IMG/VR virus record: IMGVR_UViG_3300037502_002518
Coordinates: 69,712 to 116,838 of that record
Source: a virus
Taxonomy: Duplodnaviria > Heunggongvirae > Uroviricota > Caudoviricetes
Direction: 5' to 3' (one strand)
Length of the DNA: 47,127 nucleotides
The notes under the pieces were generated by a model. That model did not search any database. It saw nothing but the letters and a program-made list of their open reading frames with translations, and was not told the DNA's origin. Positions 11,342 through 47,127 of this stretch are shown piece after piece. Numbering within the stretch: position 1 is the first letter of the stretch; each line of letters opens with the position of its first letter. The translations under genes were made by a program, and so were the position numbers.

Positions 11342-11992
11342 CTATTCTATTTTTCCAAAGCCTCTAAAATTTGAAGCATCTCCGCTTTCTTGCCATCTTG
11401 CCATTTTATATGTTCTCCATTGGACAGACCCATCAATAACTTCTGTCGTTGGTGTTTGTGACCAAGTTGGAGAGTTTGAACCAGATACACCTGCTGTTGT
11501 ACATCTGTAATAATAATATGGATTTTGCTGACCTGCTGGTACAACAATGTCACCAACATTGTACGCATAATCTGCAATCCACTCTTGAACGTCTCTCATG
11601 TCTAAAACTGTCGAACCACTTGCAACAGTAAACATAGGTTCGTTCAAAACAGAAGTTCCACTTTCAATACATTGGTAAACATGACCATTGTGTGTTGTTG
11701 GCATTCTTAAATCTCCAACAGAGTATTCTGTATTCGCTTCCCACTCTGGAGCATAAGTTCCTTCTTGAACATTAATCCATCCTGCATACTCACCAACTAA
11801 TGGAGTTAAATTCCAAAGTCTCATACCTCTTGGGTACGAGACTCCCTCTGTTAAGAAATATTCTAAAGTCATTGTTTCATTATCTATTAAATCATCAATT
11901 TTTTGAAAGTTTTCACTTAAATGATTAATTGTATCGATTACATCATCTGTAATTTCTGGCTTTTTTAATAAGTGCTTACTTGTTTCTATCAA
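11342..11992 (-). CDS. Tail-fibre-like accessory protein with nested W..NT.Y.VGD repeats
   Basis: N-terminal LLKKPEITD...INHLSENFQKID anchor-like motif, two W.A..[EA]Y.VGD repeats, terminal W..FGKI motif. Confidence 0.6.
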   Translation of the reverse strand: MIETSKHLLKKPEITDDVIDTINHLSENFQKIDDLIDNETMTLEYFLTEGVSYPRGMRLWNLTPLVGEYAGWINVQEGTYAPEWEANTEYSVGDLRMPTTHNGHVYQCIESGTSVLNEPMFTVASGSTVLDMRDVQEWIADYAYNVGDIVVPAGQQNPYYYYRCTTAGVSGSNSPTWSQTPTTEVIDGSVQWRTYKMARWQESGDASNFRGFGKIE

Positions 11993-12582
11993 TCGAAATC
12001 ACTCCATTTCATCCCATTTAACATGCTCCAATTAACATTTGCCATATCTATTTTTAAAGTTCCGTTGTCTAATGTTAGTGTGTCAAATTTTGTAATATCT
12101 AAGTCATTGGCTGTAGATAAATAATTTTTTACAAACCTCGTATTATCAAAATACATATTATCAATTACTTGCTGTTTTGAATAGCTATATGGGCTATCAC
12201 ATCTCATCCTTACAGAGAAATATCCTTGACCTGCACCAGTATGAGTTAAGGTTGAGTCTCCAATCGGCATACAGTAAAATATCCTATTGTTATTTGAGAC
12301 AGTGTAGAATGGTTTGTAAAAATCTTGGTTGAACAACCTAGCAACTCTTCTTATTTTATCTTCATCATAATCAAACTCAAAAGCAAATGACAAATCAAAT
12401 TCCAGAGGGGATTTTTCTACCCTCTGGAAATATGGTGTGCCTTTACCTGCTACTTTAACTTCTTTAATTTCCCTATCTGGGAGGAATGCTTCTTCAAACA
12501 TTCCTCCATCAAGCTTTACATTGAACAGTCCTAAGTCATTAGACTTTATTCCATCGTAACTAAAATGAATACCTTCTAGCAC
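11989..12582 (-). CDS. Distal tail protein, N-terminal half (Dit/YomH-like)
   Basis: HFSYDGIKSNDLG, PLEFDLSFAF, RIFYCMP and GYFSVRMRCDSPYSYS are Dit N-domain motifs. Immediately downstream of the TMP. Confidence 0.8.
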   Translation of the reverse strand: MLEGIHFSYDGIKSNDLGLFNVKLDGGMFEEAFLPDREIKEVKVAGKGTPYFQRVEKSPLEFDLSFAFEFDYDEDKIRRVARLFNQDFYKPFYTVSNNNRIFYCMPIGDSTLTHTGAGQGYFSVRMRCDSPYSYSKQQVIDNMYFDNTRFVKNYLSTANDLDITKFDTLTLDNGTLKIDMANVNWSMLNGMKWSDFD

Positions 12583-39059: not shown

Positions 39060-41270
39060 CTAAATCGACTTACTTAAGAACGTGTTTCTCTTTGATGATT
39101 TATCTGTTCTTATAGCATGGTTTAATGCTTTCAACTCAGAAACCAAGAAAAGATATTTTTCTGCTCTTGTTTTGCCAGTATATAATAACTGTCTATTTAA
39201 GAGAATGAATGACGAATAATCAACTGCAAGAACAACATTCTCCCAACTACTACCTTGTGATTTATGAATAGTTAAAGCATAACCTAAGTCAATTTGTTTC
39301 ATCTCTTCACGTTTAAACGTTACTTCCCCAACTGTTTCAAAGTTAATAACTATTTCTCCTTCTCCTGTGGCATCAATATGCTCAATGATACCCAAAGTAC
39401 CATTAAACACCCCTTTGTCATAGTTATTACCGTTAATGATGACTTTATCGTCTTCCATAAACACTTGTTTCCCCATGGTTATCTTGTTTTTGTGTGGAAC
39501 ATATTCTGGGTCTCTGTTAAAAATGACCTGTAATTCTTTGTTTAAATTACTTGTTGACAAGTCCCCACGCTTCTTCATTGCAACTAAAACTTGAAAGTCC
39601 ATTATGTCACCCTTGTATTTTTTTGCAATCTGGATAACTTTCTTGTAAACATTATCTGGATTTTGATACGGAAAATGATATAAATCTTTTAAATCACCAA
39701 TAATTTGAGAGTCATAATTGTCTTTGTCTGTAAAGTGCTTACCATCTCTCACTTTATTTGCTGATGATAATATTCCAGAGGCTTGAGCCTGTCTGTGAAC
39801 CTTTGTTAGTTCTACAGATGGAATCAAATCGCTATTTATTAAGTCATTCAGTACATTCCCTGCTCCAATGGCTTCTAATTGCCCTGTGTCACCTGTAATG
39901 ATTAACTTAGCACCGTCTTTAACAGCTCTAAGGAGAATGTAAAACAGCTCTGTATTCACCATTGATGCTTCATCTAGGAAGATAATATCGAAAAACGTTT
40001 TATTATTTGCATCGTATCCCCAACCTCTTGTTGGATTATAAGCTAACATTCTATGAATTGTCATAGCTTCTAGGTCTGTTGCCTCTTTGATTCTTTGAGA
40101 TGCTTTACCACTTAAGGCACAAGCTCCGTACTCTTTAGCTTCTGGCTTTGTTGATGCTTGTAATACAGCCATAATGCCACGAACGAGAGATGATTTACCA
40201 GAACCTGCTTTACCACTTACAACTACAACATTGTTTGTGATTGACATCTTAATTGCTTGTATTTGCTCCTCTGTGAATTCAAACCCTTGAGCTTTTTCTG
40301 CCCCTTTAATGGCTTCTAAAGTCTTATCCTTATCAAACTCAAAATGTGACTCTGAGTTAAGCAATCTTTCTAGGTTTGACTTGATTTCATCTTCGTAAAA
40401 CTTATATTTTTTTCGATAAACAATGTTTCCATCTACTTTAAAATCTGTGAATTTATCACCCTTGAGGAAGTCTTCAATCTCTTTTAGACCTACACTTGTT
40501 AAATCCATAATGCGTTTCACTAGTGTCGTAATTTTAATCCAAGAGTGACCGTTGTTTGCTTCTTCTTCTAAGCTGAATGTTGCACATGATTCAAGTCTAT
40601 GTGGACTATTGTATTCAACTCCCATTGACAATGCTATTTGGTCTACTTTTTTAAATCCAAAACCATCAACTTCAGTTAGGACATATGGGTTTTCGTTAAT
40701 TTTTTGAAGTAGTATATCTGGCGAACCGTACTTGTCTGATAGTCGCTTCACTGCGCTGTATGGGATGCCATACTTAGCTGTCAGTTCAACAATCGCTCGT
40801 TGATATTTCTTGTTGTCTTTAATTTTCTGTTTGATTCTTTCAATGGTTGATTCGCCAATTCCTTTGAGCAATGATAAGTCAACTTTGTTTTGTTCGATAA
40901 GTTCAACCAAGTTGCTATCTGGATAAGCATCGATGAATGTCTCCATTTGCTTTTCTGTCAACAACGACTTCAAGAAGTTTACTTGGTCTTCGCTTGTCGA
41001 GAACATCTCTTGGTAAATGCTTTTTACTTGGTATTGTAAACCAAACTTTGGATGCTTGGTCTCTTCGACAACTGCGATGTACTGACTTGTTTGATTTAAC
41101 TTAGGCATGCTACCTACGATGTTGATTTCTCCTGTTGACAAATAATTGCTGTCGTTTATGTTTTCCTTGTTCTCAGAGTCCTCTAAGACGATTGCTGAGT
41201 AGATACCAAAGCTTGAGTCCTCTGAGTAGAACTTCTGAAAGCTTGGCTTCACCTTTAATTCAAATTCCAT
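39060..41270 (-). CDS. recD2: RecD2-like ATP-dependent helicase (SF1B)
   Basis: HhH N-domain (GIG, NPYVL..VDG.GFKK.D), GKAGSGKS, TIHRML, DEASM, GD..QL.AIGAG, YALTIHKSQGS. Confidence 0.95.
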   Translation of the reverse strand: MEFELKVKPSFQKFYSEDSSFGIYSAIVLEDSENKENINDSNYLSTGEINIVGSMPKLNQTSQYIAVVEETKHPKFGLQYQVKSIYQEMFSTSEDQVNFLKSLLTEKQMETFIDAYPDSNLVELIEQNKVDLSLLKGIGESTIERIKQKIKDNKKYQRAIVELTAKYGIPYSAVKRLSDKYGSPDILLQKINENPYVLTEVDGFGFKKVDQIALSMGVEYNSPHRLESCATFSLEEEANNGHSWIKITTLVKRIMDLTSVGLKEIEDFLKGDKFTDFKVDGNIVYRKKYKFYEDEIKSNLERLLNSESHFEFDKDKTLEAIKGAEKAQGFEFTEEQIQAIKMSITNNVVVVSGKAGSGKSSLVRGIMAVLQASTKPEAKEYGACALSGKASQRIKEATDLEAMTIHRMLAYNPTRGWGYDANNKTFFDIIFLDEASMVNTELFYILLRAVKDGAKLIITGDTGQLEAIGAGNVLNDLINSDLIPSVELTKVHRQAQASGILSSANKVRDGKHFTDKDNYDSQIIGDLKDLYHFPYQNPDNVYKKVIQIAKKYKGDIMDFQVLVAMKKRGDLSTSNLNKELQVIFNRDPEYVPHKNKITMGKQVFMEDDKVIINGNNYDKGVFNGTLGIIEHIDATGEGEIVINFETVGEVTFKREEMKQIDLGYALTIHKSQGSSWENVVLAVDYSSFILLNRQLLYTGKTRAEKYLFLVSELKALNHAIRTDKSSKRNTFLSKSI

Positions 41271-41343: not shown

Positions 41344-41519
41344 GTGTTTTGTTTAAAATTTATGTATTTGATTAAATTATAGCATAAATACCATCAAAAC
41401 GTCAAAAAACCAGCAAAAAACTGAATAAAACACTTGTTTTTGATGAAAAATCATGCTATAATTTATATATAATCAATAAAATATATATAAAACTTACAAT
41501 AACAAAGGAGATGTTAAGC

Positions 41520-42530
41520 ATGAACTTAGCACAAGTAACGCAATTACAAGACGATAACATTTACGAATACTACGAGAATTACCTCAGTGGCTTCTCTGAG
41601 AATACAGCAAAGAACTATCGTGTAGACATTGAGCAGTTCTTCTCTCAAATGTTCAACAAAGAAGCAAAATATGTGTCTGTTAGTGACCTAGAGAGTCTTA
41701 AAAAGCTTGACATTGCCAGATATATTAACTTTATGGGCAGTAAATATGCTGTCACAAGTGTAAAAAGAAAATTAAACTCAATCAAGGGATTTGTTAATTA
41801 TATTGCTGGTGACTATGACAGTATAAACAAAAATATGTTTGAGAATGTTAAAACACCAAAGGCTACTGAGAAGCAAAATAGTTGGGACTCACTAGAGTGG
41901 GGAGAAGCTGTTGCTATTTGGACTTATGCTGAAGATAACTTTGGCAGTGAGATAGCAATGTTGTTCAAATTGGCTACTGTAACGTCTATTCGACTATCAG
42001 CTTTGTTAAACAGTACATGGTCTAAAAACTGGGGAATTAAGACTGAAAATGGCAATGAGATTCACTACATCGAGGTTTTTGACAAAGGGTCTGAAAACAA
42101 GAAGTCTGTATCAACAGAGTTTTACCAAGAGCTTAAATCTAAATTAAACAGACAAGATAAGCTTTTTCCAAATCTTTACCCAAACAAAGTTGGTAATATA
42201 CTCAAGGATTGTGTAGCTGGTGTTGGTATTGACCCTAAGCGTAATATCGTATTCCACAGCTTTAAAAAGGCTGGTGTCATGAGAGCTTTAGACCAGACAG
42301 GCAGTATGTACAAAGCTAAAGAGCAAGGGAATCACAAGAGTATTGTGACATCTGAGAAATATTACTTGAAGTACAAAGAGTGTCTAACAGACATGCCATC
42401 GTACAGTATGGACAAGGAATTGGACATGAAACAAAAATTTGAAGATTATAGCAAAGAGGAATTGCTTGATGCAATCGACAAGATGTCAGACTCAAGTAAG
42501 TTTGAGTTATTGCGGATTATACAGGGATAA
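41520..42530 (+). CDS. Tyrosine-recombinase-fold protein (SPbeta YopP-like); integrase or repressor
   Basis: SAM-like N-domain (SENTAKNYRVDIEQFF), SIRLSAL (R), FHSFKK (HxxK rather than HxxR), GNH...EKYY. RBS AAGGAG favours ATG 41520. Confidence 0.8.
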   Translation: MNLAQVTQLQDDNIYEYYENYLSGFSENTAKNYRVDIEQFFSQMFNKEAKYVSVSDLESLKKLDIARYINFMGSKYAVTSVKRKLNSIKGFVNYIAGDYDSINKNMFENVKTPKATEKQNSWDSLEWGEAVAIWTYAEDNFGSEIAMLFKLATVTSIRLSALLNSTWSKNWGIKTENGNEIHYIEVFDKGSENKKSVSTEFYQELKSKLNRQDKLFPNLYPNKVGNILKDCVAGVGIDPKRNIVFHSFKKAGVMRALDQTGSMYKAKEQGNHKSIVTSEKYYLKYKECLTDMPSYSMDKELDMKQKFEDYSKEELLDAIDKMSDSSKFELLRIIQG

Positions 42531-42537
42531 ATTGACT

Positions 42538-42565
42538 GGACAGCATGTAGTTGCTGTCCTTTTTT
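42538..42565 (+). terminator. Intrinsic terminator
   Basis: GGACAGCA-tgtagt-TGCTGTCC-TTTTTT. Confidence 0.85.
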
Positions 42566-42634
42566 GTTTGTTTAATTTTGACTGAAGCATTGGTGCGTAT
42601 GGGTTTGTAGCCATTTTATTTGGCTTGCTTTTTC

Positions 42635-42934
42635 AAAATGTCCCCCAAACCGCCCCCCTTATAATAATAGTTTACAGTAACTCTTATATACTAGCTTTTA
42701 GTTAATAATATATATTATACTGTAAACTAATAATATAAGGTGGCGCCTCTCGGGGACATTTTTAAAAACGTAACTTTTCGACCACCCCAGATTTTTGTGT
42801 TTTTTTAAAATGTCCCCAATAGCCCGTTCCTTATATTATTAGTTTACAGTAACTCTTATATACAAGTAATACTCTGAGTAATAATATACTACTGTAAACT
42901 TTTATTATAAGGGTGCGCGCCTCGGGAACATTTT
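42635..42934. repeat. Two tandem 128-bp imperfect palindromic elements (42635-42762, 42807-42934)
   Basis: Each reads AAAATGTCCC...CCTTATA.TA.TAGTTTACAGTA-38 bp-TACTGTAAACT...TATAAGG...GG(G/A)ACATTTT. Identical internal spacing, 172-bp period. Confidence 0.9.
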
Positions 42935-43032
42935 AGAAAAGCAGACTTAAATACATGGACGTTAAACCCTTGATAGCTCTGGTTTAAGACTATATCTGGT
43001 GACTGTCAAAACCAATGTTTTACAAAAAATGT

Positions 43033-43063
43033 AAAAGCGATGCCTATAAAATAAGCACCGCTT
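43033..43063 (-). terminator. Intrinsic terminator of the wHTH gene
   Basis: AAGCGGTGC-loop-GCATCGCTT followed by TTACATTTTT on the minus strand. Confidence 0.65.
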
Positions 43064-43068
43064 CTTGT

Positions 43069-43902
43069 TTATTTTTCTAAGTCATAAAATCTTTTTGCAG
43101 GTTCTTTTCTCAAAGTCTTAAATCTATTTGTTGACCCTTTTCTGTCTGGAGATTTAATATTTTTGTAAGTTATATAACCTTTGTCTCTGAGTGTTCTAAT
43201 TATGTCACCTACAGTTGATTTTGTCATACCAAGGTCATCGACAAAATTTTGCTTTGGAATGTCTATTCCGTCTGGAAAGTGTAGCTGTTTCATCTCGATG
43301 TAGCCTAATGTGTAAACATGTCTTGCATCTAAGTTCTTGTCTGACATAAGTTTTATAAACATGTCCATCTCGATTGAGTGAGTATGAGAGAAGTTATAAT
43401 ACGTTCCAGTGTAATCTGCTGGGTCATCGTCTTTGAATCGGACGAATGATTTAACAGGTTTACGAATCTTGAATTGTTTCTTTAAGTCGATTTGGTCACG
43501 AATAATCTTGTCTAAATCGTAATACATGACAAAACCTGTTGTCTCGTTTTCTGGTTGTGTATCGATAGGGTGGTCACGTTCAGAAGTAATGTAACCAAGT
43601 TCTTGTAAGATACCTCCATTCTTTGTGTATGGAGTGAATTTACGAATGGATGATAAGACTTGAGACATGATAACCTTTTGTTCGTAATCATATACAGTCC
43701 GTTTACCGTACATAGCATTTCTGTACAGAATGTTGATGATGTGGTAGTAGACGTAAGAGTAAGCTCTGTACTGGAATGACTCGATTTGTTTAAAGTCCTC
43801 AAAAATTTCATTTGGAATCTGAGGGTTGATGTATCTTGGTGTGACTAGCCATTCCTTGAATTCTTTACCTCTTAGTTTTAATTCGTTGTTGTTTGTAGCC
43901 AT
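43069..43902 (-). CDS. Conserved phage DNA-binding protein with C-terminal winged HTH (candidate replication initiator)
   Basis: IPNEIF.D, AYSY.Y, KNGG.L..LGY, TGT.Y....TH.I motifs. C-terminal LGMTKSTVGDIIRTLRDKGYI wHTH. Confidence 0.6.
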   Translation of the reverse strand: MATNNNELKLRGKEFKEWLVTPRYINPQIPNEIFEDFKQIESFQYRAYSYVYYHIINILYRNAMYGKRTVYDYEQKVIMSQVLSSIRKFTPYTKNGGILQELGYITSERDHPIDTQPENETTGFVMYYDLDKIIRDQIDLKKQFKIRKPVKSFVRFKDDDPADYTGTYYNFSHTHSIEMDMFIKLMSDKNLDARHVYTLGYIEMKQLHFPDGIDIPKQNFVDDLGMTKSTVGDIIRTLRDKGYITYKNIKSPDRKGSTNRFKTLRKEPAKRFYDLEK

Positions 43903-44000
43903 AGTTTTTCTATCTCCCTTTTCTTTTGTGCAATATGCACAGTTATTATTTTTGCATATATAGCCTAGTTTGGCTTAGGTTATGATTGAATGGATTGTAG

Positions 44001-44069
44001 TTATCCACAGGTTATCCACAATGAGAAAACATTCTGGGAAATAATTTATCCACAGAAAAGTTATCCACA
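44001..44069 (+). promoter_or_regulatory. Cluster of four perfect DnaA boxes (TTATCCACA)
   Basis: Exact 9-mers at 44001, 44012, 44046 and 44061, all in the same orientation. Confidence 0.9.
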
Positions 44070-44104
44070 GGATAATGATATAGGCTAAATATGACGTTAA
44101 GTTA

Positions 44105-44133
44105 ATTATATCTTAAAATGTACCCTTTGTCAA
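44105..44133 (-). promoter_or_regulatory. Consensus sigmaA promoter for the wHTH gene
   Basis: TTGACA-17-TATAAT. Confidence 0.85.
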
Positions 44134-44199
44134 TAAGTTTTGGGAAATAATTTGATAAAATTTGTGATGTAGGTGAGGCGATTCATATAGACTTTTATT

Positions 44200-46560
44200 G
44201 GGGCATTCATATGTATAGGGTAAAATGTACTAATGGGGAAAGTATAGGGATTTATTGGTTAACATGTAGATGTGATTTTTTGATATTTTATGTGTAATTA
44301 TAATGGTACAAAAGACCTAAAAAAGCTGTTTTCTAAAAGTATGTAGGTTTTGTGTGGATGAAGTTGTGTTTTTGGGTGCTATTTTTTATCTTAAATTTAA
44401 TGGGTTAGGAATATACTTTATTTTTATAGAATTGGGACATTTTAGGAGTGAAAATTTTTTATTCTAAATTGAATGATTTTGAGTGTATTTGACTGATTTT
44501 TGAGTTTTTACCCGTTTTCCAAAAGTAAGCATAAGAGTGTTGGACGTATGGTTTGTATTTTTAGACTTATGATGAATAGGTCTATTTTTTTGTCATTTTT
44601 TAGATGTGTTATATGTAGGCTTTAATTGCTTAACTTTGGAAAACAGATATGACTACCGATTTTATGAGTCATTTTTAATGCTGGGAATAGATTTTAATTG
44701 GGTGTAGGGACTACCGATTTTGTGGTAAAAATTTATGGGAAATAATGTGTTTTTTAGGTGGGTATGAGTGATGTGTATAGGTGTTCATTTGGGAAATGAA
44801 GTTTTGTACTTGGGAAATAATGTATTGATGTGTAAATGGAGTTGGTTATGTATGGGGAAATGAAGTTATTGTGATGAAAAGTAGGTGAATGTTATGAGAG
44901 TTAAAAATGGAGTGTAAATGGGTGTTAAAAATGATGTTAGGACTTTTGTAATGGTGGTAGTGATTGGGGTAGGTATTTGTTGGTTTAAAAGGGTGTGCAT
45001 TTTAGGTGGATTGATGATGGGTGAATGAAGGGTGTGTTGTGAGAAGCGATTTTAAGGGAATGAGATAAGGTTTTGTTGGTGATTGGTTGAGTGGGTTGAC
45101 GTTGGTTTGGATGATGGTTGAGATGATGTTGTTGGATGAGGTTGGTTTTGATGTGTGTACATATAGAGAATATATGAGTGAACGTGTGAATGAATGTGCA
45201 GATGTTATGGTTTTGTAACATGCGGTTAGGTTGAGGCAATGACTGGATGAGTTGGGTGATGGGTTGAATTTTGTTTAGATTGAATGATTGAATGGTTGAA
45301 TGGTTGATGGGTTGGAAAATGAGTTGGGAAGTGGTATGTAGTTTTGGTGTAGGTTTTTAGTGCTTAAAATTGGTTTGAAAATTGGTTATGAGTTTTGGTG
45401 TATATGTCACTAGGGGTTTTGTGAAATGGCAGGAATTTCCAAAGTTGTAAAATATCCCCCACCTACGAACAACCATACGAACAGTTTATATATAATTGGC
45501 GTTATATATAACGAAGGGGAACACCAGTTTTTAAATGGAGTAAACTTCCATATTTACCATAGGTGAGGACATTTACCTATTTTTTGACAATTTTATAATC
45601 TGGGAAAATTTTTAAAATTATGGAAGATTTCTTCCAGTTCTAGACTGGGTGAAATATGGATATTTTTTGGGACTACTGGGACAAATTACCTATGGCACTT
45701 ACTTTTTGTAAGTTAGTTATAAAAAGATAACTAACGTTATTAAAATTAATTTATTAAGTTTTTAACCTTAATCTAACTTTTTATAACCTTAATTTTAACT
45801 TAATACTAACTTAATTTAATCCTACAATCTAACTTTATTTTACTAACAATCTAACTTAATCCTATCACTTTTATAACTTTAATTCTCTTCCACTTTTAAC
45901 TTAATAAAGTTATTTTATTAAGTAATTTTAACTTAATAAATTTATTTAATTAAGTTCTTAATTATAATCATTCTAATCTAATAATCATTATAATCTAACC
46001 TATCACCTTCCATATACTACCATTTTATCCTTATGCATATTTATTCATTACATTGTATATCTATACACTTACTTCCTTTCATTTCCTTTCATTAATCTTC
46101 CATATTCTACCACCATACCTTCCATATTTTAGGTGATTATTCACTATGTCAAGTAATTTTACTTGATATTTGTAAGGCAAAATAAAGCCCGTAGAGACGT
46201 TTTAAGCTTTTCAGGTATATTTACATTCAAGACCACCTTAAAACAAAAAGCATACTTTTTTAAAAAAGTCAATACATTTATTTTTCTTTTTACTATTGAC
46301 AAGTTTATTGTTCGATGCTTTCCGAACGTTTTCACCGACCACGTTGAAATTGTTCGTGTTTTCATTTTACTTCCACTATCTACTATTTATTCCACTATCT
46401 GCCATTTATTACATTTACTTACATTACTAACACTTCCTACCATTTACCATTTACTTCCATTTAATTACCATTTAATTTCCATAAAACTTTCTATTGACTT
46501 TCATCATCATCTATGTTATTTACACGTGTGCGCACACGTGCGCATGCACATGCACGTTTT
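44200..46560. other. Long non-coding, strand-asymmetric region (G/T-rich left arm, C/A/T-rich right arm); candidate genome terminus/packaging region
   Basis: C-free runs 44810-44942 and 45244-45362, G-free run 45759-45908, no credible ORFs. Confidence 0.6.
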
Positions 46561-46733
46561 TTGCCATATAATGAAGAAAAAAAATATTTGCGATTTTTTA
46601 AAGTTTTTTTAAAAAAGTGGTTTAAACTATCTCTTTTCTGGTTATATACAAGTATAGCAAGTTACTAATAAGCAAGTTAAAACTTATTACAATAGTATTT
46701 TAAAAGTTTTTTAAACTTTTTTAAAAAAGGGGG

Positions 46734-46763
46734 TTTACAATAACATTGTTATCATGATATATT
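46734..46763 (+). promoter_or_regulatory. sigmaA-type promoter (tandem cluster, 1)
   Basis: TTTACA-18-TATATT, TG in the spacer, A/T-tract UP element. Confidence 0.6.
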
Positions 46764-46833
46764 AAATGTGTCGAAAGCAAACGACGTTAAAAAATTCCCA
46801 GTAATTACCAAAAAAATAAATTGAAAAAAGTTA

Positions 46834-46863
46834 TTGACAATAACTAATCTTTCGATTTATAAT
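46834..46863 (+). promoter_or_regulatory. sigmaA-type promoter (tandem cluster, 2)
   Basis: TTGACA-18-TATAAT with A-tract UP element. Confidence 0.8.
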
Positions 46864-46932
46864 AGGGACGTACCCAACAAGGGGACAAAAAAATGGTAAA
46901 CATTACCAATTAAATAAAAGTGAAAAAAATTG

Positions 46933-46961
46933 TTGACAACAACAAACCATTCATTTATAAT
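46933..46961 (+). promoter_or_regulatory. sigmaA-type promoter (tandem cluster, 3)
   Basis: TTGACA-17-TATAAT with A-tract UP element. Confidence 0.85.
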
Positions 46962-47127
46962 TGGTTTTGTAAGCAACACAGCAACACGATTTGCCAAGTT
47001 TTACCAAGTATTAAAACTTTACTTGAAGTGGTTGCCCACTTGAAAAAGTTTAGGAAGGCAGGAAAAATCTTCCATACAATCTTTAAAGATTGTTACTACA
47101 AACGCAAGCCACGACTCTTGTCAATGT

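What the first reader, a model, noticed from the sequence alone, without database searches (positions are those of the whole stretch)
43069..44133. Candidate initiator gene controlled by host DnaA: perfect promoter, four DnaA boxes, wHTH gene, palindromic repeats
Seen: TTGACA-17-TATAAT (44133-44105), then four exact TTATCCACA boxes within 69 bp of the transcribed leader, then the wHTH gene, then the 128-bp elements. Established: TTATCCACA is the consensus DnaA box, and the B. subtilis origin is bipartite around an autoregulated dnaA gene. Inference: an oriC-like phage or phage-plasmid replicon that couples its initiator to the host DnaA cycle, recruits DnaA for helicase loading, or titrates DnaA to stall host replication.
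Basis: partly seen in the sequence, partly recalled or inferred. Interest (0 to 1): 0.7.

Follow-up and report, generated by a model that had tools for sequence, protein, structure and literature searches.

The report
Host DnaA boxes gating phage initiator gene
A 117-kb uncultured phage has put four perfect binding sites for the bacterial replication starter protein DnaA between a very strong promoter and the gene for its own probable origin-binding protein, so it probably ties the start of its replication to the state of the host's replication machinery.

Summary
A consensus promoter (TTGACA-17-TATAAT, 44133-44105, minus strand) is followed by four exact TTATCCACA boxes (44001-44069). These are the only exact copies in the 116.8-kb genome; chance of such a cluster is about 2e-10. 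Then come a 277-aa gene with a C-terminal winged helix and two tandem 140-bp palindromes.

- **Conservation:** the boxes and their 15/34/11-bp spacing are kept in the only two close relatives found. They are absent from 55 more distant loci carrying the same gene family, so they are a lineage-specific addition.
- **Family-wide features:** a long palindrome with an AT-rich centre lies directly after the gene, and in several relatives a copy of its arm motif lies at the gene's promoter. This marks the protein as an origin-binding, self-regulated initiator candidate, and the palindromes as the likelier origin.
- **No oriC-type signal:** no DnaA-trio array above chance and no AT-rich unwinding element lies beside the boxes.

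Best reading (0.42): host DnaA docks in the transcribed leader (about +30 to +98) and gates initiator synthesis. Main rival (0.28): the boxes are a working origin part, as in P1 oriR or RK2 oriV.

DnaA binding was not tested. This scan has noted DnaA boxes in other phages before. This is a new variant of a known kind.

The parts
44105..44133 (-). Consensus sigma-A-type promoter TTGACA-17-TATAAT driving the winged-helix gene
   Evidence: One of five 12/12 promoters in the genome. Both hexamers are kept in L007 and L008.
44141..44151 (-). ATTATTTCCCA motif, 7 nt upstream of the -35 hexamer; candidate operator
   Evidence: The exact 11-mer occurs four times in the genome, all within 44035-44821 and in one orientation. 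It lies in a 35-nt block invariant against L007. Sundance-type relatives carry their palindrome-arm motif just upstream of the -35 hexamer.
44061..44069 (+). DnaA box 1 (TTATCCACA on the plus strand), about +30 to +38 of the leader
44046..44054 (+). DnaA box 2, 6-bp gap from box 1
44035..44045 (-). Second ATTATTTCCCA motif, between the two box pairs inside the leader
   Evidence: In the centroid RNA fold its UUUCCC pairs with the ribosome-binding GGGAGA (weak evidence).
44012..44020 (+). DnaA box 3
44001..44009 (+). DnaA box 4, 2-bp gap from box 3 ('double DnaA box' geometry), about +90 to +98
   Evidence: The 2-3-bp spacing rule is from PMC11317965.
43926..43942 (-). Short perfect palindrome or hairpin (TGTGCA-TAT-TGCACA) just before the ribosome-binding site
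   Evidence: Kept in L007 with a change in the centre only.
43069..43902 (-). 277-aa gene with a C-terminal winged helix and a weakly winged-helix-like N-terminal domain; candidate origin-binding initiator
   Evidence: PHROG 19047, E 7e-41. Homologues are annotated 'replication initiator' in Thrax/Tsamsa-type phages. Whole-protein model pLDDT 89. C-terminal winged helix Z 9.4. N-terminal domain matches winged helices only at Z 5.7 or less.
43033..43065 (-). Intrinsic terminator ending the initiator transcript before the palindromes
42801..42940 (.). Palindrome 2 (51-nt arms, 38-bp centre with 76% A+T); origin candidate
   Evidence: The position directly after the gene is conserved across the family.
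42629..42768 (.). Palindrome 1 (51-nt arms, 38-bp centre with 84% A+T); origin candidate
44434..44444 (-). Solitary fifth copy of the outer arm motif (AAAATGTCCCA), about 340 nt upstream of the start site
   Evidence: The core TAAAATGT is kept in L007 and L008.
44736..44821 (-). Two more exact ATTATTTCCCA copies (44736-44746, 44811-44821), with shorter ATTTCCC copies at 44791 and 44855
   Evidence: Three of these lie in blocks invariant against L007.
41511..42530 (+). XerD-like tyrosine recombinase, convergent with the initiator gene; its terminator is at 42538-42559
   Evidence: Synteny with the initiator gene in Sundance-type and Tsamsa-type relatives.
39060..41270 (-). RecD2-like helicase, the syntenic neighbour of the module

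Best explanation
The region is the replication-control cassette of a Sundance/Tyrovirus-related phage.

1. The 277-aa winged-helix protein is the phage's origin-binding initiator. This is inferred.
2. Its cis site, and the probable origin, is the pair of palindromes with AT-rich centres directly after the gene. This is inferred from family-wide linkage.
3. In this lineage alone, four consensus DnaA boxes have been added to the transcribed leader, behind a consensus sigma-A promoter. This is shown by the sequence.
4. Host DnaA docks there, most firmly on the 2-bp-spaced pair formed by boxes 3 and 4, and gates transcription of the initiator gene. Repression by roadblock is the more likely sign, because the promoter is already a perfect consensus and the sites lie downstream of it. 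Binding and sign are both inferred.
5. Initiator supply, and so phage origin firing, would then depend on how much free DnaA the host has. Each new phage copy adds four more sites, which could relieve the block as replication proceeds.
For: - Four exact boxes are the only ones in the genome; chance is about 2e-10.
- Sequence and 15/34/11-bp spacing are invariant in L007 and L008, while L007's flanking non-coding DNA is only 79% identical to the window.
- All boxes lie between the -10 hexamer and the ribosome-binding site.
- The promoter is one of five perfect ones in the genome, and the only one pointing leftward.
- The phage has no DnaA or DnaA domain IV of its own.
- The box cluster is absent from 55 other loci carrying the gene family, so it is not needed for the family's basic mechanism.
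- A long palindrome follows the gene in at least 16 of 50 loci at a strict threshold, against one comparable repeat in about 550 kb of flanks. This includes loci without the recombinase next to the gene.
- The arm motif recurs at the gene's promoter in L020, L021, L022, L005, L066 and, less exactly, L060.
- No DnaA-trio signal above chance and no AT-rich element lies beside the boxes.
- DnaA bound inside transcription units is reported to impede RNA polymerase (Schaefer and Messer, cited in PMC10950094). DnaA is reported to control expression of lambda's initiator genes (PMC8203912).
Against:
- The sign of regulation is unknown. DnaA promotes expression of lambda's initiator genes (PMC8203912), so activation is possible.
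- Tandem consensus DnaA boxes beside a rep gene are also the hallmark of DnaA-assisted plasmid origins such as P1 and RK2 (PMC4980987).
- This phage lacks the DnaD-like gene that Sundance carries next to the module, which would fit recruitment of host primosome proteins through DnaA.
- The region lies at the divergence point of the two gene arms.
- The host is unknown, so its DnaA-box preference is assumed to be the general consensus.
Confidence: 0.42

Rival explanations
1. The boxes are a working part of the replication origin. Host DnaA bound at the four boxes helps the phage initiator open DNA, or delivers a helicase, as at P1 oriR and RK2 oriV. In Bacillota the route would run through DnaD, DnaB and DnaI. 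Together with the downstream palindromes this would form a bipartite origin around the initiator gene. It might serve a low-copy maintenance mode coupled to the cell cycle.
For: - There are four co-oriented consensus boxes, the same number as at RK2 oriV. P1 has two box arrays at its origin (PMC4980987).
- The region is the divergence point of two nearly equal gene arms, and cumulative GC skew turns at the opposite point, near 61 kb.
- ATTATTTCCCA and ATTTCCC motifs form an iteron-like same-orientation array around and upstream of the boxes.
- No helicase loader was identified. No DnaD-like or ParA gene was found, whereas Sundance has both next to the module.
- Relatives are thought to have a plasmid-prophage stage (PMC9703825).
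Against: - The family's conserved origin-like element is the palindrome, and it functions in relatives without any DnaA boxes.
- There is no DnaA-trio signal above chance and no AT-rich element within 250 bp of the boxes.
- There are no weaker flanking boxes of the kind origins use.
- The phage has its own DnaB-like helicase, primase and Pol III alpha.
- No partition genes were found.
- From my own knowledge, no DnaA-dependent plasmid or phage replicon is known in Bacillota.
Confidence: 0.28
2. The boxes are a DnaA sink. As the phage genome multiplies, four high-affinity sites per copy soak up host DnaA. This blocks new rounds of host chromosome replication and shifts DnaA-controlled host genes. 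Any effect on the initiator gene is secondary.
For: - All four sites are perfect consensus, the high-affinity class, as expected for titration sites rather than timed low-affinity origin sites.
- Titration of DnaA by extra boxes on plasmids is established in E. coli (PMC8203912).
Against: - A sink could sit anywhere, but these sites keep an exact position and spacing inside one leader in three phages.
- Only four sites exist in 117 kb.
- No other box cluster occurs in the genome.
Confidence: 0.1
3. The 9-mers are read by something other than host DnaA, for example a phage DNA-binding protein with the same specificity. Alternatively the winged-helix protein is only a transcription regulator, and the cassette has no role in replication.
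For: - PHROG 19047 and RefSeq call the family 'transcriptional regulator'.
- No Rep-family Pfam hit exists for the window protein.
- No experiment exists for any family member that I could find.
Against: - The 9-mer is the exact, near-universal DnaA consensus, repeated four times.
- The palindromes lie between convergent terminators with no promoter to regulate. They travel with the gene across distant phages, which a plain repressor operator would not explain.
Confidence: 0.12

Closest known systems
P1 prophage plasmid origin oriR with repA
   Same: A phage replicon in which host DnaA boxes stand beside the gene of a phage-encoded initiator that also binds repeats near its own promoter. The DnaA-box arrays lie at the origin edges (PMC4980987).
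   Different: - P1 uses 19-bp direct iterons and a Rep_3-type RepA in a Gram-negative host. Here the cis element is a pair of 140-bp palindromes downstream of the gene.
- The protein here has no Rep_3 signature.
- The boxes lie in the mRNA leader.
- Relatives infect Bacillota.
RK2 oriV
   Same: A cluster of four DnaA boxes next to initiator-binding repeats. At RK2 the boxes serve as the helicase delivery site (PMC4980987).
   Different: RK2 has an adjacent AT-rich element with 13-mers and direct iterons, and trfA is not transcribed through the boxes. None of these was found here.
Lambda pR / ori-lambda control by DnaA
   Same: Host DnaA acts on the transcription that expresses a phage's own initiator genes and activates its origin (PMC8203912).
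   Different: From my own knowledge, lambda's sites are weak and DnaA stimulates transcription. Here there are four perfect boxes behind a perfect promoter, the sign is unknown, and the initiator family is unrelated.
Bacillus subtilis oriC with the dnaA gene
   Same: An initiator gene flanked by DnaA-box DNA upstream and an unwinding element downstream, with DnaA control of the initiator promoter (PMC6669920, PMC8203912).
   Different: - The flanked gene is not dnaA.
- There is no DnaA-trio array above chance.
- The downstream element carries no DnaA boxes.
- The exact four-box pattern is absent from 185,579 species genomes.
DnaA roadblocks at E. coli asnC-mioC and datA
   Same: DnaA bound to boxes inside a transcription unit impedes RNA polymerase (Schaefer and Messer 1988 and 1989, cited in PMC10950094). 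The 2-3-bp 'double box' is the preferred in vivo target (PMC11317965).
   Different: Those are chromosomal sites in E. coli. The reported orientation rule could not be checked because the 1989 paper is not held.
Tyrovirus/Sundance 'front' module (Thrax1 gp22 replication initiator, gp19 XerD, gp10 RecD-like helicase)
   Same: Same protein family at 23-33% identity, same synteny, and the same palindrome after the gene.
   Different: Those phages have no DnaA boxes near the gene. They carry ParA or ParM-type genes, and Sundance has a DnaD-like gene, all absent here (PMC9703825).

Membership tests
High-affinity DnaA-box cluster | Three or more consensus TTATCCACA 9-mers within about 100 bp | tested here: met
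   Four exact boxes lie within 69 bp and are the only exact ones in the genome. Chance is about 2e-10.
High-affinity DnaA-box cluster | A 'double DnaA box': two co-oriented boxes 2-3 bp apart (PMC11317965) | tested here: met
   Boxes 3 and 4 are separated by 2 bp. Boxes 1 and 2 are 6 bp apart and do not fit the rule.
High-affinity DnaA-box cluster | Bound by DnaA | not testable with these tools
   This needs a footprint or ChIP. The host is unknown.
oriC-type basal unwinding system (BUS) | At least three DnaA-trios (NAN) within 0-16 bp of a box, above chance | tested here: inconclusive
   Only three trios adjoin box 1. In this genome 37% of random positions do as well (pattern from PMC8287927).
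oriC-type basal unwinding system (BUS) | AT-rich unwinding element next to the boxes | tested here: not met
   No 60-nt stretch of 80% A+T or more lies within 250 bp of the boxes. The richest stretches lie at 45.7-46.0 kb, 46.2-46.7 kb and in the palindrome centres.
Iteron-type Rep replicon (P1, F, RK2, pPS10) | Initiator with a Rep_3 or related sequence signature | tested here: not met
   The window protein has no Rep-family Pfam hit. Among 60 family members, 11 hit HTH_36 and 2 weakly hit RepL. PHROG 270 'replication initiation protein' scores only E 1e-3.
Iteron-type Rep replicon (P1, F, RK2, pPS10) | Two tandem winged-helix domains | tested here: inconclusive
   The C-terminal winged helix is clear (Z 9.4, rmsd 1.5 A, 65 residues). 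The N-terminal domain matches winged helices (ORC2, DnaD N-terminal domain, TubR) only at Z 4.6-5.7.
Iteron-type Rep replicon (P1, F, RK2, pPS10) | Direct-repeat iterons of 17-22 bp at the origin | tested here: not met
   The cis element is four 51-nt arms in alternating orientation. The 11-nt ATTATTTCCCA repeats are direct but irregularly spaced.
Iteron-type Rep replicon (P1, F, RK2, pPS10) | Initiator site at its own promoter (autoregulation) | tested here: inconclusive
   The arm motif lies just upstream of the -35 hexamer or follows the -10 hexamer in relatives L020, L021, L022, L005, L066 and L060. In the window a similar place, 7 nt upstream of the -35 hexamer, holds ATTATTTCCCA, which is only 7 of 11 like the arm motif.
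PHROG 19047 / Tyrovirus gp22-type initiator module | Sequence membership | tested here: met
   PHROG 19047 at E 7e-41. tblastn matches to Sundance, Thrax and Tsamsa genes. 175 representatives at E 1e-3 or better.
PHROG 19047 / Tyrovirus gp22-type initiator module | Synteny with a XerD-like recombinase and a RecD2-like helicase, and a long palindrome after the gene | tested here: met
Phage-plasmid (P1-like or Tyrovirus-like plasmid prophage) | Partition genes (ParA, ParM or TubZ type) | tested here: inconclusive
   No AAA_31/ParA hit was found, and there is no homologue of Sundance ParA or gp008. ParM and TubZ types were not searched.

The most novel reading that the evidence does not exclude
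This would be a chromosome-style, DnaA-dependent replicon in a phage of Bacillota. Host DnaA at the four boxes and the phage winged-helix initiator at the palindromes would together fire a bipartite origin built around the initiator gene. A 117-kb phage genome would then be under host cell-cycle control. To my knowledge no DnaA-dependent plasmid or phage replicon is known in this phylum.
Probability: 0.25. Interest if true: 0.75.

Novelty: new variant of a known kind. Interest (0 to 1): 0.55.

Why it matters
- **A testable origin.** Large Sundance/Tyrovirus-type phages of spore-forming bacteria have no mapped origin. The comparison made here gives a concrete candidate for the whole family: the initiator gene, the palindrome directly after it, and an arm-motif copy at the promoter.
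- **A natural experiment.** In this lineage four perfect host DnaA sites have been added in the initiator's leader. Box-mutant and DnaA-depletion experiments could show whether a phage reads the host's replication state before committing to its own replication.
- **Possible generality.** Tandem perfect DnaA boxes occur on at least 119 other viral contigs, some of 95-176 kb. Use of host DnaA by phages may therefore be common and under-described.

Tried and rejected
- **Box clusters in relatives.** None in 51 viral loci, 4 bacterial loci or Sundance.
- **Capture from a host oriC.** The exact four-box spacing pattern is absent from the species-genome and metagenome collections.
- **Phage-encoded DnaA or DnaA domain IV.** None found.
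- **DnaA-trio (BUS) test.** At chance level.
- **Weak flanking boxes.** None nearby. One 1-mismatch inverted box lies at 44353, and it is not kept in position in L007.
- **Rfam on 42400-47127.** Nothing credible.
- **Fold searches.**
  - Foldseek against the PDB, and VIA on the whole model, found only the C-terminal winged helix.
  - AlphaFold DB clusters returned unnamed relatives plus one weak 'Initiator Rep' row.
  - The N-terminal domain alone gave Z 5.7 or less.
- **PDB profile search.** Only generic HTH matches.
- **Recombinase-site reading of the palindromes.** Rejected as the main reading, because the palindrome follows the winged-helix gene even where no recombinase is adjacent.
- **Covariation in L008.** Its protein C-terminus diverges, but its arm motifs differ too little and too inconsistently to count as covariation.
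- **Tools and sources that were unavailable.**
  - The genome holding L007 is not held.
  - Schaefer and Messer 1989 on orientation dependence is not held.
  - The search for related loci with the 60-sequence alignment failed on genome contigs; a smaller alignment worked.
Full report
**Where the window lies.** The window is bases 69712-116838 of a 116,838-bp IMG/VR phage record. The record's 'terminal repeat' is an exact 127-bp overlap. That length looks like an assembler overlap of a circular or terminally redundant genome, so the right end of the window continues into base 128 of the record. This is my inference.

The genome has two gene arms. Plus-strand genes run from 0.5 to 62.3 kb and minus-strand genes from 62.6 to 113.6 kb. 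They diverge at a non-coding stretch of about 3 kb, which is 43.9-47.1 kb of the window. Cumulative GC skew turns near 61 kb. The finding therefore sits at the head of the leftward arm.

**The observation.**
- On the minus strand the sequence reads TTGACA, 17 nt, TATAAT (44133-44105). Only five such 12/12 promoters exist in the genome. The other four fire rightward into the early genes.
- Four exact TTATCCACA boxes lie at 44001, 44012, 44046 and 44061, all in one orientation.
- They are the only exact copies in the genome. About 1.3-1.5 are expected per genome, and four within 69 bp has a chance of roughly 2e-10.
- With a start site about 7 nt after the -10 hexamer (inferred, near 44098), the boxes occupy about +30 to +98 of a leader of about 197 nt.
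- Boxes 3 and 4 are 2 bp apart. This is the 'double DnaA box' that E. coli DnaA prefers in vivo (PMC11317965). Boxes 1 and 2 are 6 bp apart.
- No weaker boxes flank the array.
- The 277-aa gene (43069-43902) ends at a terminator (43065-43033).
- Two tandem palindromes follow, at 42629-42768 and 42801-42940. Each has 51-nt arms around a 38-bp centre of 84% and 76% A+T.
- The convergent XerD-like recombinase gene ends at its own terminator at 42538-42559.

**Conservation of the boxes.** A search of 5.8 billion protein clusters found only two close relatives, at 95% and 81% identity. Both contigs, L007 and L008, carry the same four boxes with the same 15/34/11-bp spacing and the same promoter. 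Against L007 the non-coding DNA is only 79% identical. The boxes, both promoter hexamers and a motif ATTATTTCCCA lie in invariant blocks.

By contrast, no box cluster appears in 51 viral loci carrying more distant family members at 23-34% identity. The same holds for four prophage copies in Paenibacillus and Heyndrickxia, and for Sundance. The boxes are therefore a real, selected, lineage-specific addition and not a family trait. The exact four-box pattern occurs in none of 185,579 species genomes and in no JGI metagenome contig, so there is no sign of recent capture from a host oriC.

**What the gene is.**
- It belongs to PHROG 19047 (E 7e-41).
- Its phage homologues are annotated 'transcriptional regulator' or 'replication initiator' in Sundance, Geobacillus E3 and the Thrax/Tsamsa group.
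- The Tyrovirus paper lists Thrax1 gp22 as replication initiator, near a XerD recombinase, a RecD-like helicase and plasmid-like genes (PMC9703825).
- That synteny (initiator, recombinase, RecD2 helicase, sigma factor) is kept here.
- A model built on 60 homologues is confident (pLDDT 89, pTM 0.89).
- Residues 193-264 form a clear winged helix (Z 9.4, rmsd 1.5 A, 65 residues).
- The N-terminal 178 residues, modelled alone (pLDDT 85), match only winged-helix domains, and weakly (ORC2, DnaD N-terminal domain, TubR; Z 4.6-5.7).
- The window protein has no Rep-family Pfam hit. Two of 60 family members hit RepL weakly. Membership of the classical Rep families is therefore not established.

**The comparative result that shapes the interpretation.** In every relative with the initiator-recombinase synteny, one long palindrome lies between the two genes. 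It has 40-55-nt arms and an AT-rich centre. It also lies directly after the winged-helix gene where no recombinase is adjacent, in L054, L068, L027, L030 and L032.

With a strict score, 16 of 50 usable loci have such a repeat at or within 520 bp after the stop codon. Only one comparable repeat exists in about 550 kb of flanking DNA. Laxer settings add five more loci. The palindrome therefore belongs to the winged-helix gene and not to the recombinase.

In addition, the outer arm motif recurs once at the gene's own promoter. It lies just upstream of the -35 hexamer in L020, L021, L022 and Sundance. It follows the -10 hexamer in L066 and, less exactly, in L060.

A protein whose site occurs both at its own promoter and, in multiple copies, around an AT-rich core follows the classical logic of an autoregulated origin-binding initiator. 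Here that core lies between convergent terminators where nothing needs regulating. This is inference; no family member has been tested, as far as I could find.

In the window each arm reads as three parts: a TTTTyAAAATGTCCCC block, a variable GC-rich 13-mer, and then CTTATAWTAWWAGTTTACAGTA. A fifth solitary AAAATGTCCCA lies at 44434, with its core kept in both relatives.

The site 7 nt upstream of the -35 hexamer holds ATTATTTCCCA. This 11-mer occurs exactly four times in the genome, all between 44035 and 44821 and all in one orientation. One copy lies between the two box pairs. It matches the arm motif at only 7 of 11 positions, so calling it the operator is a guess.

**Is the box array an oriC-like origin?** I tested the published pattern for the basal unwinding system: a box, a 0-16-bp spacer, and at least three NAN trios (PMC8287927). 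Only box 1 has three trios, and 37% of random positions in this genome reach that number. No 60-nt stretch of 80% A+T or more lies within 250 bp of the boxes.

The phage encodes its own DnaB-like helicase, primase and Pol III alpha, but no DnaA. I found no DnaD-like or ParA gene in it. Sundance's ParA, gp008 and DnaD-like genes, which flank the module there, have no homologue here.

That last point cuts the other way. A phage without its own DnaD-like organiser could use DnaA-bound boxes to draw in the host's. DnaA-box arrays also stand beside rep genes at P1 oriR and RK2 oriV, which has four boxes that act as the helicase delivery site (PMC4980987). The origin reading therefore stays a serious rival.

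**How it most likely works.**
- Shown: the sequence layout, its statistical strength, its conservation, and the family-wide link between gene, palindrome and promoter motif.
- Inferred:
  1. Host RNA polymerase fires the consensus promoter early.
  2. Host DnaA sits on the leader boxes and gates transcription of the initiator gene. Repression is more likely than activation, because the promoter needs no help and the sites lie downstream of it. DnaA inside transcription units is reported to impede polymerase (cited in PMC10950094). However, DnaA promotes expression of lambda's initiator genes (PMC8203912).
  3. The initiator binds the palindrome arms, and the AT-rich centres open for the phage helicase.
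  4. Replication then proceeds in both directions, co-oriented with the two gene arms.
- The readings of gating, origin part and DnaA sink are not exclusive. All three need DnaA binding, which I put at about 0.85.

**Comparison and novelty.** The closest known systems are P1 oriR/repA, RK2 oriV, lambda pR/ori-lambda and the B. subtilis dnaA-oriC region. This case differs from them in five ways:
- the initiator family is different;
- the element beside the gene is palindromic, not made of direct iterons;
- the boxes lie inside the initiator's mRNA leader;
- the setting is a large Sundance/Tyrovirus-type phage whose relatives infect Bacillota;
- the boxes are a recent addition to a module that works without them elsewhere.

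I class it as a new variant of a known kind. Earlier notes of this scan report DnaA boxes in many other phage genomes, mostly upstream of promoters. My own scan found tandem perfect boxes on at least 119 viral contigs. The general theme is therefore not unique to this phage.

**Limits.** The host is unknown. The orientation rule for DnaA roadblocks could not be checked.

Noticed in passing
window 44134-46520: About 2.4 kb of non-coding DNA has extreme, mirrored strand composition. The plus strand has only 4.5% C over 44134-45450 and only 5.7% G over 45701-46520. L007 has a homologous region at 76-84% identity. Divergent G-poor transcripts and an origin-related role are both conceivable.
   Followed up: partly
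window 44709-44721 and 44651-44663: A direct repeat AAAATCGGTAGTC occurs twice, about 58 bp apart. The second copy lies in a 35-nt block invariant against L007. Its function is unknown.
   Followed up: no
window 43880-44098 (minus strand, leader RNA): The leader folds better than shuffles (z -2.7). In the centroid structure the UUUCCC of the leader's ATTATTTCCCA motif pairs with the ribosome-binding GGGAGA. This may be a translational layer, but the minimum-energy fold does not show it.
   Followed up: partly
L145:413-700, L121:6299-6503, L097:6693-6712 and others (L074-L153): Tandem perfect DnaA boxes (TGTGGATAA, 2 nt, TGTGGATAA) occur on at least 119 IMG/VR contigs. Of the 80 fetched, 30 have five or more boxes within 300 bp, including contigs of 95, 116 and 176 kb. 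The neighbouring genes have no Pfam match or only DUF932/GP88. Some short contigs may be bacterial oriC fragments.
   Followed up: partly
G000:C1:1-127 and 116712-116838: The record's 'direct terminal repeat' is exactly 127 bp. That looks like an assembler k-mer overlap and not a physical end. Sundance has a 323-bp repeat and Tsamsa a 284-bp repeat (PMC9703825).
   Followed up: no
L008:1984-2793 versus window 43069-43902: L008 is about 95% identical in DNA through the upstream region and the first two-thirds or so of the gene. Its protein diverges from about residue 187, in the C-terminal winged-helix domain. This suggests a recombination joint inside the gene.
   Followed up: partly
window 12010-12363 (minus strand): Sundance's winged-helix protein gives a weak second match here (E 0.001), inside the 197-aa ORF 11989-12582. 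It may be a distant paralogous winged-helix domain.
   Followed up: no
L005:1500-2350 (Sundance, between the DnaD-like gene and parA): Sundance's divergent intergenic region holds many copies of an AAATACATGTATTTAT-type palindrome and no DnaA boxes. These may be partition or operator sites. They occupy the place where this phage has its 3-kb non-coding region.
   Followed up: no
G000:C1:13320-14279: A second tyrosine recombinase (PHROG 5830 'integrase', E 3e-75) lies in the rightward arm. This recalls the multiple recombinases of Tyroviruses.
   Followed up: no
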